64,000 nt of DNA from Escherichia coli (lineage in GTDB: Bacteria > Pseudomonadota > Gammaproteobacteria > Enterobacterales > Enterobacteriaceae): NCBI RefSeq assembly GCF_009931435.1, contig NZ_CP043414.1. The stretch is one strand, 5' to 3'. Made by a program: the position numbers. Shown one piece after another: positions 12,001 through 15,000 of this stretch (its first letter is position 1; each line of letters starts with the position of its first letter).

Positions 12001-15000
12001 TACCCTGACCATAATCAACGCCACGACCAGTATCTTTCCCCACTAACTGTGCGGATGCGCTGAATGAAAACGCCAGGCTGTTGATACCAATCACCGTCGC
12101 CAGCATGAGCTTACTGCGCCCGCTCTTTTTTCCACGACTTTTCGCCGTTTCACTGGCAACGCTATAGCTGCCCGTTGCCGGATTCCAGATAACTTTAAAT
12201 ATTTTGTTCATTCGTGATGCTCTCTATTCCTTGATATAAGCGCAGAAGCTGCATTTATTTTTTGTTTTTCCGCTGCCGGGTTTCAGCAGGTTGAACAGTG
12301 TCGAACTGGAGATTGGCCATATTGATGGACAATTTCAGATACTTCAGGTTATTAGGTGAAACGCCTTTTAATGTCAGATTAATGTCTTGCCATTGACCTG
12401 GCATTAATTGCAGGGTGGAGTTCATGGTGGTGTTGAACAGCAGTTGCTGCCACTTTGCCAGCGCTTTGGCATCGGTGGGTCTTTCATTGCCCCATGTGGC
12501 TTGAAAGCCAATATTTAATACGGGAACGCTTAAAAGGTTAACCAGCGAAATACGAATAACGCTACCATTTTCAACTGCATCAATAGACAGCACCCGGCCT
12601 GCCAAACCAACCGAGCCATTGTTTAAAATGAAGTATTTTGTTTGTGCTGGGTTAAATTCGGTGAAGACAAATTCGTCCTGTTTGTCTTTGACCGCCTTTA
12701 CTACACCCGCCAGCACTTTAGTGGTGTTTGCAATATTAATTTGTTGATTTTCAATAATTTCTATTTTTCTTTTATATTGTTCTTGTTCTTTTTTCAAGAA
12801 TCTCTATTTTACTTTTTTGCAATTCTTGCTGTTTGGCAAGATCGTCGATCAGATTCGCTTTCTCAATATAGTCACACCCAGTCAATACCCAGAGTGGCAA
12901 TGTTATAAACATGCTTAATAGTGCTTTTTTGATGCTCATAGGGTGAATTCCTTTTCATGATCCCGATACGTTAACTGTTACGGCGTAATCATCCTTTTTA
13001 TGAATGATTCGAGTGGAAATATACGTTATATAAATTTATAAGAGACTTTTTCTATTAATTGTTGTATTAATTGGTAGTGCGAATATGACATTAAATGTCA
13101 GACAATTTCAGATTGTAGCCAATAATATTAATCGCGCGGATTTTAATGATCGATGTCAATCAATGTCAAATGTTTCACCGGATGAAAACACCGACCAGGA
13201 GAAATATTAATATTCAGCATGGTGATGTTTTCTTGGGAAGTGTGTGATTCTGAGCGATAAATATAAATAATTAATGGCTGTTACAGGCATTAATGTGCAT
13301 TAATTCATTGTTATCGCTTATATATCACTTTTTTATTCCATACCACAATTTCAGAATTTAGCCTGTAATATGCGCTTCAAAGAGCCGGTGAGATGGAAGC
13401 AATAGTGATAAGAATGTTAAAGATATCCGATATCTGGTATCAGGCTCCTGCATGTGCCAGCAGGAGCGAGTAAATCGTGAGAGGCTGTGATTACAGCGGT
13501 GAGACAGGTACTTAAAATGCGGTCTTAGAGAATCCGGTCATCTCTTGCAGGCCCATTTCGCGGCCCAGCGCGGTCATCGGATGCACAACTACCAGTCCGC
13601 GAACACTTTTCTTCAGCTTGCCCATATCAGCCTGCTCTTTTTTGGTAATCGCGCGCTGGAAGGGCATTTTCATCAGTTTTTGCGCTTCTTTACTGAGTTT
13701 CTGGCTGTGAACTTCACGCAGGCGAGCAATTTCGGCTTCCAGCGTGGCTTTTTCTTTTTCCAGTTCGGCATATTTATCTGCGGCTTCAACAAGTGACAGG
13801 TCAGCCTGCTGATGGCGGATAGCGTCCAGGCGATCGCTGAGACGTTTGATTTCGTTTTTTTCGACTTCTTTCATGTGATGACTTCTGATAGAGATAAATT
13901 TATAGCCTCTAGTATGCGCGACCAGGTGCTTTGTTCACAACAGATGGCATTGTAATAGTTCCAGATTGTAACCATTAATGTGTTTGAAAATCACCCAATC
14001 TATTGATTAGTTAGGAAATTTAAAGAAAAAAGATAGACAACAGAAGAGGATCATTATTGAGGATTGAGCACGTTTTCCTTAATGTCATTTATACCGGGAT
14101 CTAAACTAAAATTGGCGGCCGCGCATTCCCGACGCGGGGTAATACGGAGATATCATCATGGGCAAATTAGGTGAAAACGTTCCGCTTCTTATCGATAAAG
14201 CTGTAGATTTCATGGCATCGAGCCAGGCGTTCCGGGAGTATCTGAAAAAACTTCCTCCCCGCAATGCGATTCCGTCCGGAATACCTGATGAAAGCGTGCC
14301 GTTATATCTACAACGTCTGGAGTATTATCGTCGGCTTTATCGGCCGAAACAGGTAGAGGAGAAGTAAGCGAAAGTACTTACTTTTGAAAGGCTTTTTTTA
14401 AGCTGATTTTGGAAATCAGCTCTGTCAGTGAAAGGACCATTGTTGATCGCACAGCCTGTTGGTAACGCTGAATTTGCATTGCATACAAACTGGAGTCTGC
14501 GGGTTCAAACTGTGGCGGCGGTGGTAACGCCGCCACACAGTGCAGCTCACCAAAGGGGCCAAGAATTTCGTCGTCGGTAAAGGCGTACTCATTGCCGTCG
14601 TGATTTAGTTCTTCACGCAATGCCATCAGCAGTTCCGCATCTTCGTATTCATGGCGGTTAATGACACCCAACCCGTAAATGAGTTTTAAACGCACAGAAA
14701 GATCGCCCAGCGGGCCATCGCCGTCGAGTAACGGTTCTACAGCATACTTCACCGCGTAATCGTCTTTGCGGAATACCTGAAGCACCAGAAGATTTACCGC
14801 CTCGGTCAAAAGCTCGACGGCGGTAATCAGAAAGCTTCGCACGGTTTTGCCAGCATTCAGACGCTCAAGCACACGGTTTTCAAAGGCCTGGGTTTGTTCC
14901 ATTGTTGCCTGCATATCTGACAATCTGTTATTCGGGCGCAGGGAGTCCTGCGCCTGGTCCACCATTATTGCATTGCTTTATAAGCGGTTACTGCCTCGGA

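What the first reader, a model, noticed from the sequence alone, without database searches (positions are those of the whole stretch)
12940..13511. 570-bp AT-rich region upstream of the lipoprotein-adhesin pair
The region is conspicuously AT-rich against GC-rich coding flanks and contains no ORF. This composition is typical of horizontally acquired, nucleoid-protein-silenced promoters; the inverted repeat ctcctgc...gcaggag near 13445-13466 may be the yibL terminator.
Basis: inference. Interest (0 to 1): 0.3.

Follow-up and report, generated by a model that had tools for sequence, protein, structure and literature searches.

The report
Promoter region of sadB-adhesin operon
This AT-rich gap is the ordinary control region of a known E. 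coli lipoprotein–adhesin operon (SadB plus a UpaG/EhaG/SadA-type adhesin); it holds one strong conserved promoter, its orthologues are reported to be silenced by H-NS, and it is not a new kind of element.

Summary
12940-13511 is exactly the gap between yibL and a SadB-like lipoprotein gene, both on the minus strand. It has 35.8% GC against a window mean of 51%, no conserved ORF, and a perfect 8-bp inverted repeat at 13444-13467.

Comparison with 11 related loci shows a near-consensus sigma-70 promoter, TTGACA-18-TAAAAT at 13169..13140. It is the only match of 11/12 or better in the 64 kb. Its two hexamers are kept from E. coli to Salmonella, while the rest of the gap drops to 42-50% identity.

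AT-richness and gap length are kept in every lineage carrying the operon at this site. Secondary citations report that H-NS represses the orthologous upaG/ehaG.

- **Not a recent island.** The locus sits in the same place in Salmonella, E. fergusonii and Pseudocitrobacter. K-12 lost it by deletion.
- **Not a canonical terminator.** The hairpin is stable and conserved but has no T-run. K-12's actual yibL terminator lies here downstream of the adhesin gene, at 7484-7513.

Verdict: a known kind of element, already described at this locus. Low interest.

The parts
13512..13874 (-). yibL coding sequence (upstream neighbour; context)
   Evidence: 120-aa ORF. NCBIfam equivalog 'YibL family ribosome-associated protein', E 8e-57. 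Pfam DUF2810. RefSeq annotation of the identical locus.
13444..13467 (-). Stable hairpin about 45 nt after the yibL stop (8-bp GC-rich stem, 8-nt loop, no T-run). Possible yibL 3'-end or stabilising element; not a canonical intrinsic terminator.
   Evidence: Perfect inverted repeat, unique in the window. Folding energy -16.5 kcal/mol, z = -3.84. Invariant in the four window-family E. coli alleles aligned and in Escherichia sp. E1V33; a sixth Escherichia allele (SCPM) differs only in the loop. Pseudocitrobacter keeps the stem through a change on both sides (CTCCTGT...ACAGGAG). The terminator scan finds nothing here.
13349..13355 (-). Short motif TCTGAAA, nearly invariant across genera, about 186 nt upstream of the -35. 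Candidate regulator site of unknown identity.
   Evidence: Conserved in at least 9 of 10 aligned lineages, including Salmonella, E. fergusonii and the O157 allele.
13270..13294 (.). 25-bp near-palindrome ATTAATGGCTGT-T-ACAGGCATTAAT plus tandem GCATTAAT repeat (13287-13304). Specific to this allele.
   Evidence: fold z = -3.75 in the window, +0.71 in the IHE3034 allele. Not conserved in the other alleles.
13140..13169 (-). Predicted sigma-70 promoter of the sadB-adhesin operon: -35 TTGACA (13169-13164), 18-nt spacer, -10 TAAAAT (13145-13140). Predicted transcription start near 13133.
   Evidence: 11/12 match. It is the only site of 11/12 or better on either strand of the 64 kb. The -35 is invariant, and the -10 is TAAAAT, TAGAAT or TAGCAT at 17-18 nt, in 10 lineages from E. 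coli to Salmonella. The spacer varies in the distant lineages.
13113..13118 (-). Conserved CTACAA block at about +16 to +21 of the predicted transcript
   Evidence: Conserved in at least 9 of 10 lineages (alignments).
12940..13133 (-). Predicted 5' untranslated leader of about 194 nt. It includes the inverted repeat AATCATTC...GGATGATT (12987-13009) and a Shine-Dalgarno AAGGA (12949-12953) 9 nt before the ATG.
   Evidence: Sequence. The leader is no more structured than shuffles (z = +0.60). The inverted repeat and the SD/ATG block are conserved within Escherichia and Pseudocitrobacter.
12255..12939 (-). SadB-like inner-membrane lipoprotein gene, first gene of the operon. It is frameshifted in this window by one extra base in a homopolymer (T6 on the plus strand at 12789-12794).
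   Evidence: The intact 227-aa form matches PDB 4c47 (SadB) at E 6.5e-71. The window has A6 where the otherwise near-identical locus has A5. The ORF is split into 55 + 180 aa. All 28 close relatives are one base shorter.
7658..12211 (-). Trimeric autotransporter adhesin gene (UpaG/EhaG/SadA positional orthologue), 43 nt after the lipoprotein gene
   Evidence: Pfam ESPR, YadA_head, YadA_stalk and YadA_anchor. RefSeq 'YadA-like family protein'.
7484..7513 (-). Canonical intrinsic terminator ending the operon. It is the same element that terminates yibL in K-12.
   Evidence: 13-bp stem plus TTCTTT. Its K-12 counterpart lies about 100 nt after yibL. Alignment.

Best explanation
12940-13511 is the regulatory region of a two-gene operon on the minus strand: a SadB-type lipoprotein followed by a UpaG/EhaG/SadA-type trimeric autotransporter adhesin.

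Shown by sequence comparison:
- One strong sigma-70 promoter, TTGACA-18-TAAAAT at 13169..13140.
- Conserved AT-richness and gap length.
- A conserved hairpin after yibL.
- No canonical terminator in the gap.

Inferred:
- Transcription starts near 13133 and gives a leader of about 194 nt ending in a conserved Shine-Dalgarno/ATG block.
- The promoter sits inside roughly 800 bp of 30-35% GC DNA (about 12600-13400, running into the 5' part of the lipoprotein gene). H-NS (possibly with StpA) probably coats or bridges this DNA and keeps the otherwise strong promoter silent under laboratory conditions, as reported for the orthologous upaG/ehaG. The silencing has not been tested for this allele.
- The yibL-proximal ~90 nt carry a stable hairpin that probably marks or protects the 3' end of the yibL message. 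It lacks a U-tract, so any termination there would be inefficient or factor-dependent.

The locus is ancestral at this site and has been deleted in K-12-like strains.
For: Locus identity:
- The arrangement is lldD-lldR-lldP / adhesin / lipoprotein / yibL / yibT / mtlR-D-A, as annotated in a genome whose gap is 100% identical.
- The lipoprotein matches SadB, PDB 4c47, at E 6.5e-71. The adhesin has ESPR and YadA head, stalk and anchor domains.
- Grin et al. 2014 place sadBA between mtl and lld and describe a 5-kb deletion in K-12.

Promoter:
- 11/12 match on the correct strand, and the only such site in 64 kb.
- The -35 TTGACA and a -10 of form TAnnAT at 17-18 nt are kept in all 10 lineages from E. 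coli to Salmonella, E. fergusonii, Pseudocitrobacter and O157. The spacer and surrounding sequence diverge to 42-50% identity.

Silencing:
- GC is 28-33% in the 450 nt upstream of the ATG, and the gap is 526-572 nt, in every lineage that has the operon at this site.
- Two papers cite Totsika et al. 2012 for H-NS repression of UpaG and autotransporters.
- SadA was undetectable under all tested culture conditions in Salmonella.
- In a Salmonella fur mutant, hns rises 3.1-fold and STM3690 (sadB) falls 4.2-fold.

Hairpin and terminator.
Against: - No transcription start site, H-NS occupancy or hns-mutant data exist for this allele. The primary paper (Totsika 2012) could not be read.
- Matches to the 10-mer that I recalled from memory as the high-affinity H-NS site are no more frequent than composition predicts (5 observed against 2.2 expected, about 8% of shuffles).
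- A consensus -35 with an 18-nt spacer is slightly off the optimal 17 nt.
- A second, weaker -10-like hexamer (TATTAT, 13127-13122) lies just downstream, so the exact start is uncertain.
- With no canonical terminator between yibL and the lipoprotein gene, some operon transcription could come from yibL read-through.
- The lipoprotein gene is frameshifted in this window, so the operon may be partly defunct in this strain.
Confidence: 0.8

Rival explanations
1. The hairpin at 13444-13467 is the functional yibL terminator. It isolates the AT-rich promoter region from yibL transcription.
For: It lies about 45 nt after the yibL stop and is GC-rich and stable (-16.5 kcal/mol, z = -3.84). It is invariant in the window-family alleles aligned, and Pseudocitrobacter keeps the stem through a two-sided change. 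The O157 allele has a different stable hairpin at the same place. Citrobacter youngae and Enterobacter wuhouensis have hairpin-plus-T-run terminators after yibL.
Against: No T-run follows the stem on either strand, and the scan finds no terminator in 12700-14100. The K-12 yibL terminator is a different element, which here lies after the adhesin gene. High conservation of the first ~86 nt could simply mean that the allelic recombination breakpoint lies downstream of it.
Confidence: 0.3
2. The operon has no effective promoter of its own and is transcribed by read-through from yibL. The TTGACA/TAAAAT match would then be incidental in AT-rich DNA.
For: No canonical terminator lies between yibL and the lipoprotein gene. 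All genes are on the same strand.
Against: The two hexamers and their spacing are conserved across four genera while the neighbouring sequence is not. An 11/12 match is unique in the 64 kb. yibL is a housekeeping-type gene, whereas SadA is not detectably expressed in culture.
Confidence: 0.07
3. The active promoter depends on an activator (class II FNR/CRP type). The site TTGAT-TGAC-ATCGA (13163-13150) would be centred at -41.5 from a start near 13115, using the -10 TATTAT (13127-13122).
For: The geometry is exact in this allele (sequence). Salmonella STM3690 is tabulated as Fnr-regulated in PMC3212961. The conserved CTACAA block would lie at this alternative start.
Against: The right half-site is already degenerate in other E. 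coli alleles (ACCGA, ACCGC). The whole site is absent in Salmonella, E. fergusonii, Pseudocitrobacter and O157, the lineages in which the hexamers of the first promoter are kept. In AT-rich DNA a TAnnnT hexamer is easy to find.
Confidence: 0.08
4. The gap hides an unannotated small RNA or small protein gene.
For: A 22-23-codon TTG-initiated ORF (LTSIIKIRAINIIGYNLKLSDI) recurs in all six Escherichia alleles, and both indels in it are multiples of three. The hairpin after yibL is conserved.
Against: Rfam gives no match even at E <= 1. The recurring ORF starts inside the promoter spacer, has no ribosome-binding site, and coincides with the conserved promoter DNA. All other small ORFs differ between alleles. 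The leader shows no excess structure.
Confidence: 0.04

Closest known systems
upaG (UPEC CFT073) and ehaG (EHEC O157:H7) upstream regions, reported as H-NS-regulated (Totsika et al. 2012, Appl Environ Microbiol 78:2179; known here only through citations in PMC5012682 and PMC3966885)
   Same: Same chromosomal position (yibL / lipoprotein / adhesin / lldP), same operon layout and same AT-rich gap of about 560 nt. The -35/-10 hexamers are the same.
   Different: This window carries a rare allele: only 28 of 5426 complete E. coli genomes are >=95% identical. It is about 78-80% identical to the allele of the B2-type strain IHE3034 and about 50% identical to the EhaG-type allele. H-NS control of this allele has not been tested.
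Salmonella sadBA operon (Grin et al. 2014, J Biol Chem 289:7388, PMC3953254)
   Same: The lipoprotein is a SadB homologue. The lipoprotein-adhesin spacing is 43 nt here and in the Salmonella locus L017; Grin et al. give 44 bp. The location is between mtl and lld, and the upstream gap is 526 nt with the same promoter hexamers.
   Different: The gap is only about 42% identical. Salmonella lacks the GCTCCTGC hairpin and the GC-rich CCGCGCG stretch after the -10. Grin et al. state that the native expression conditions are unknown.
Other H-NS-silenced adhesin promoters of E. coli (F9 fimbriae, UpaC, UpaH, cryptic chaperone-usher fimbriae; PMC3966885)
   Same: An AT-rich upstream region, a surface adhesin that is silent in culture, and repression by H-NS as the proposed mechanism.
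   Different: Those loci are unrelated in sequence. Here the locus is ancestral and syntenic across genera rather than a strain-specific island.
K-12 yibL intrinsic terminator (hairpin AAGGGCAAT...ATTGCCCTT followed by a T-rich tail, TTCTTT)
   Same: It is the transcript-ending element after yibL in strains without the operon.
   Different: In this window that element is at 7484-7513, after the adhesin gene. The hairpin inside the finding is a different sequence and has no T-run.

Membership tests
sadBA / upaG / ehaG-type operon upstream region | Located between the mtl operon/yibL and the lld operon | tested here: met
   The same layout is seen in Salmonella and E. fergusonii. Literature.
sadBA / upaG / ehaG-type operon upstream region | The first gene encodes a SadB-family inner-membrane lipoprotein | tested here: met
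   PDB 4c47 at E 6.5e-71; lipobox LTGC followed by D at +2. The copy in this window is frameshifted.
sadBA / upaG / ehaG-type operon upstream region | The second gene is a trimeric autotransporter adhesin about 44 bp downstream | tested here: met
   ESPR, YadA_head, YadA_stalk and YadA_anchor domains; 43-nt spacing.
Sigma-70 promoter | -35 and -10 hexamers near consensus with 16-18 nt spacing, on the strand of the downstream gene | tested here: met
   TTGACA-18-TAAAAT, 11/12; unique in the window; hexamers conserved across genera.
Sigma-70 promoter | A mapped transcription start 6-8 nt after the -10 | not testable with these tools
   No transcriptome data are available here. Needs 5' RACE or dRNA-seq.
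H-NS-silenced (xenogeneic-silencing type) promoter | An extended tract clearly more AT-rich than the genome, spanning the promoter | tested here: met
   31.6-35.8% GC against 51%. Kept at 28-33% in all lineages with the operon at this site.
H-NS-silenced (xenogeneic-silencing type) promoter | H-NS occupancy and derepression in an hns mutant | not testable with these tools
   Reported for the orthologues UpaG/EhaG by secondary citation only. The primary paper is not held. Motif enrichment is not beyond composition.
H-NS-silenced (xenogeneic-silencing type) promoter | The DNA is recently horizontally acquired | tested here: not met
   The locus is syntenic in Salmonella, E. fergusonii and Pseudocitrobacter. 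K-12 carries a deletion. However, the alleles within E. coli are 50-80% identical, so allelic exchange is likely.
Intrinsic (Rho-independent) terminator | A GC-rich stem-loop shortly after the stop codon | tested here: met
   8-bp stem, -16.5 kcal/mol, about 45 nt after the yibL stop.
Intrinsic (Rho-independent) terminator | A run of T (U) immediately after the stem | tested here: not met
   The tail is CCTGATACCAGATATC. The scan finds 0 terminator-like sites in 12700-14100.
Any curated RNA family (Rfam 15) | A covariance-model match | tested here: not met
   0 matches at E <= 1 over 12000-14500, both strands.

The most novel reading that the evidence does not exclude
The gap may be an ancient regulatory module kept polymorphic across species. 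At least three deeply divergent allele families exist in E. coli (about 50-80% identical), alongside Salmonella, E. fergusonii and Pseudocitrobacter versions (42-55%). Shared by all lineages are the core promoter hexamers, the motifs TCTGAAA (about -220) and CTACAA (about +18), the gap length of about 530-570 nt, and about 30% GC. Within Escherichia there is also a stable hairpin after yibL, though its sequence differs between allele families. On this reading the architecture, not the sequence, is under selection. TCTGAAA would be the site of a still-unknown counter-silencer. Finding that factor would show when SadA/UpaG/EhaG is expressed, which the literature calls unknown.
Probability: 0.15. 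Interest if true: 0.45.

Novelty: already known. Interest (0 to 1): 0.15.

Why it matters
UpaG, EhaG and SadA are adhesins and vaccine candidates whose natural inducing conditions are unknown. This analysis gives a promoter pinned to the base, and two short motifs conserved across genera. Those are concrete targets for reporter fusions and pull-downs. It does not reveal a new kind of element. It also corrects two tempting inferences:
- AT-rich DNA here does not mean a recent island.
- A GC-rich hairpin after a stop codon is not necessarily the terminator.

Tried and rejected
- **Rfam.** A scan at E <= 1 over 12000-14500 found nothing.
- **Leader structure.** The predicted leader folds no better than shuffles (z = +0.60). 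The strong fold at 13240-13320 (z = -3.75) is specific to this allele and absent in IHE3034.
- **Small ORFs.** They are not conserved, except a 22-codon TTG ORF that merely overlaps the conserved promoter DNA.
- **H-NS motif.** The 10-mer TCGATAAATT (consensus recalled from memory) gives 5 hits with up to 2 mismatches in 12600-13511, against 2.2 expected from composition. This is not significant.
- **FNR-like site.** A site in the promoter spacer has exact -41.5 geometry to a second -10, but it is not conserved outside a few E. coli alleles.
- **Fur-box-like half-sites.** AATCATT...AATGATT in the leader are in the wrong orientation for a Fur box and absent in Salmonella, where the Fur effect was reported.
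- **Dam-methylation phase variation.** There are only two GATC sites, and the one in the promoter is lost in one allele.
- **Primary papers.** Totsika 2012 and Valle 2008 are not held.
- **Short query.** A 101-nt BLAST query across the frameshift returned nothing, probably because of the low-complexity filter. It was repeated with 386 nt.
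Full report
**1. What is at the coordinates**

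The window is E. coli chromosome. Around the finding, all on the minus strand, lie mtlA, mtlD, mtlR, yibL (13512-13874), a lipoprotein gene (12255-12939), a 1517-aa trimeric autotransporter adhesin gene (7658-12211) and then lldP. yibT sits on the plus strand between mtlR and yibL. A goat isolate (NZ_CP074749.1) has a 100% identical gap and is annotated in the same way. The finding, 12940-13511, is exactly the gap between the yibL stop and the lipoprotein ATG.

- yibL matches the YibL equivalog model.
- The intact form of the lipoprotein matches the crystal structure of Salmonella SadB, 4c47, at E 6.5e-71.
- The adhesin has ESPR, YadA head, YadA stalk and YadA anchor domains.

This is therefore the sadBA / upaG / ehaG locus. 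Grin et al. 2014 place it between the mtl and lld operons and describe it as an operon.

**2. Checking the observation**

- **Composition.** GC is 35.8% over the gap, against 51.1% for the window. Only 3.5% of 572-bp windows are as low. The core, 12940-13360, is 31.6% GC.
- **Flanks.** They are not GC-rich. yibL is 49.6% and the adhesin gene 51.5%. The lipoprotein gene is itself AT-rich (39.9%, and about 35% in its 5' part). The AT-rich block is really about 12600-13400.
- **Neighbouring gap.** The yibL-yibT gap is 38.5% GC, so the composition is moderately rather than wildly unusual for a promoter-bearing gap. The length is the more unusual feature.
- **ORFs.** There is no ORF of 60 aa or more, and the small ones differ between alleles.
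- **Inverted repeat.** It is real and perfect: 13444-13451 and 13460-13467. It is unique in the window.

**3. Where the locus comes from**

Aligning K-12 shows that its yibL stop is followed within about 15 nt by sequence that, in this window, lies at about 7240-7640, downstream of the adhesin gene. K-12 therefore lacks everything from about 7640 to about 13500, including the whole finding.

The same order, mtlD-mtlR-yibT-yibL-gap-lipoprotein-adhesin, with a gap of 526-531 nt, is present in Salmonella enterica and E. fergusonii. Pseudocitrobacter also has yibL directly upstream of the gap. Grin et al. likewise describe K-12 as carrying a 5-kb deletion. So the locus is ancestral at this site, not a recent island.

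The 5426 complete E. coli genomes divide as follows.

| Class | Genomes | Source |
|---|---|---|
| K-12-like empty junction | 1262 | |
| Gap alignable to this window | 1880 | |
| EhaG-type gap (O157, O26) | 2267 | |
| Total accounted for | 5409 of 5426 | |

Only 28 of the 1880 alignable gaps are at least 95% identical to the window; the rest are 60-80% identical. The EhaG-type gap is only about 50% identical to the window. yibL next door is essentially invariant: the same protein accession appears in several of these genomes. The gap is thus part of the known hypervariable UpaG/EhaG region, and this window carries a rare allele.

**4. Phylogenetic footprinting**

I aligned the gap from four E. 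coli alleles, then from 12 lineages, then with the O157 allele. Most of the gap diverges freely. Against that background, these blocks stand out on the minus strand:

- (a) The first ~86 nt after the yibL stop, including the hairpin. This block is conserved within the window-family alleles only.
- (b) TCTGAAA at 13355-13349.
- (c) TTTGACA at 13170-13164.
- (d) TCATTA at 13149-13144.
- (e) CTACAA at 13118-13113.
- (f) Within Escherichia and Pseudocitrobacter, an inverted repeat AATCATT...AATGATT at 12987-13009.
- (g) The Shine-Dalgarno/ATG block.

Blocks (b) to (e) hold in at least 9 of 10 lineages, out to Salmonella.

Blocks (c) and (d) are the -35 (TTGACA, 13169-13164) and the start of the -10 (TAAAAT, 13145-13140) of the promoter-like site that the consensus scan reports, with an 18-nt spacer and 11 of 12 matches. 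It is the only site of that quality on either strand of the 64 kb.

In E. fergusonii, Salmonella and the O157-type allele the hexamers are TTGACA plus TAGCAT or TAGAAT at 17-18 nt, while the spacer sequence is different. Conserved hexamers with a free spacer are what a real sigma-70 promoter looks like.

From this I infer a start near 13133 and a leader of about 194 nt. The leader is not unusually structured (z = +0.60), and Rfam finds nothing.

**5. Silencing**

I could not test H-NS binding. The evidence is indirect:

- The 450 nt upstream of the ATG are 28-33% GC, and the gap is 526-572 nt, in every lineage with the operon at this site. This holds even though sequence identity to the window falls to 42-50%. 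Composition and length behave as conserved properties.
- Two open papers cite Totsika et al. 2012 for H-NS repression of UpaG and of autotransporters in uropathogenic E. coli. My recollection of that paper's abstract agrees, but I could not open it.
- SadA was undetectable under all culture conditions tried in Salmonella, and its native inducing conditions are unknown.
- In an anaerobic Salmonella fur mutant, hns goes up 3.1-fold and STM3690 (sadB) goes down 4.2-fold. This fits H-NS repression but does not prove it.

One negative result: matches to a 10-mer I recalled from memory as the high-affinity H-NS site are not enriched beyond what the composition predicts.

A near-consensus promoter buried in AT-rich DNA on both sides is the usual anatomy of an H-NS-silenced gene. 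I take that as the most likely mechanism, at about 0.7 for this allele.

**6. The hairpin**

The stem is 8 bp, GC-rich and stable (-16.5 kcal/mol, z = -3.84), and it lies about 45 nt after the yibL stop. Pseudocitrobacter keeps it through a change on both sides of one pair. The O157 allele has a different stable hairpin at the same place.

Against the terminator reading:
- The tail is CCTGATACCAGATATC, with no T-run, and the scan finds no terminator-like site in 12700-14100.
- The canonical terminator that follows yibL in K-12 lies in this window at 7513..7484, after the adhesin gene.
- Citrobacter youngae and Enterobacter wuhouensis do have hairpin-plus-T-run elements after yibL.

So the hairpin may shape or protect the yibL 3' end, but it fails one defining feature of an intrinsic terminator. 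Some read-through from yibL into the gap cannot be excluded.

**7. Alternatives considered**

- **An FNR/CRP-like site.** TTGATTGACATCGA (13163-13150) sits exactly 41.5 nt from a start predicted from a second -10, TATTAT (13127-13122), and Salmonella sadB is tabulated as Fnr-regulated. However, the site is not conserved outside a few E. coli alleles and is absent in Salmonella.
- **A 22-codon TTG ORF.** It recurs in the Escherichia alleles, but it begins inside the promoter spacer, has no ribosome-binding site, and simply mirrors the conserved promoter DNA.
- **A 25-bp palindrome** at 13270-13294. It is specific to this allele.

**8. Verdict**

The silencing part is plausible and already in the literature for the orthologues. 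The 'horizontally acquired' part and the 'yibL terminator' part are not supported as stated. This is a known kind of element at a known locus, so interest is low. What this analysis adds is a base-level promoter prediction, two unexplained motifs conserved across genera (TCTGAAA and CTACAA), and the relocation of the K-12 yibL terminator to the far side of the operon.

Noticed in passing
window 12789-12794 (within the lipoprotein gene 12255-12939, minus strand): The SadB-like lipoprotein gene is split into 55 + 180 aa by one extra base in a homopolymer: A6 on the coding strand, where a near-identical genome has A5. All 28 closely related complete genomes are one base shorter and are annotated as intact. 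The frameshift is therefore either private to this strain or a homopolymer sequencing error.
   Followed up: yes
L003 817-1500 (IHE3034); L021 about 1521-1536 (O157:H7): The same lipoprotein gene is disrupted independently elsewhere. RefSeq flags an internal stop in IHE3034. In the O157:H7 genome codon 3 reads TAG where the related allele has TTG, and the annotated start is moved 15 nt downstream. Repeated loss of the adhesin's export helper may be a pattern.
   Followed up: partly
window 7658-12211 versus L001 3336-8273: The adhesin is 1517 aa here but 1645 aa in the genome whose upstream gap is 100% identical. The window protein contains long internal tandem repeats (for example [46 protein letters not shown], twice), so the repeat number probably varies.
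   Followed up: no
window 13349-13355 and 13113-13118: Two short motifs, TCTGAAA and CTACAA (minus strand), are nearly invariant from E. coli to Salmonella in a gap that is otherwise 42-50% identical. No known regulator site was matched to them.
   Followed up: partly
window about 20600-26400: This is the most AT-rich part of the window (27-33% GC in 572-bp windows, minimum at 20622-21193). It holds several ORFs of 150-400 aa on the minus strand, next to a 1397-aa ORF at 26178-30371. The genome with the identical gap (L001) goes straight from yibH to yibF, so this block is accessory. It was not examined further.
   Followed up: no
window about 16100-16450 (between the mtlD and mtlA ORFs): A repeated sequence appears twice, seen as ORF translations repeating the peptide ...[28 protein letters not shown].... 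This looks like a cluster of repetitive extragenic elements. It was not analysed.
   Followed up: no
L006 1-2609 (E. coli 24AR0376): In this genome only the first ~110 nt after yibL (85% identical to the window) are retained. They are followed by an IS1 copy and fimbrial usher and chaperone genes instead of the lipoprotein-adhesin pair.
   Followed up: no
window 13270-13304: There is an allele-specific 25-bp near-palindrome, ATTAATGGCTGT-T-ACAGGCATTAAT, overlapping a tandem GCATTAAT-GT-GCATTAAT repeat with a 10-bp period. It folds strongly as RNA (z = -3.75) but is absent from the other alleles.
   Followed up: partly
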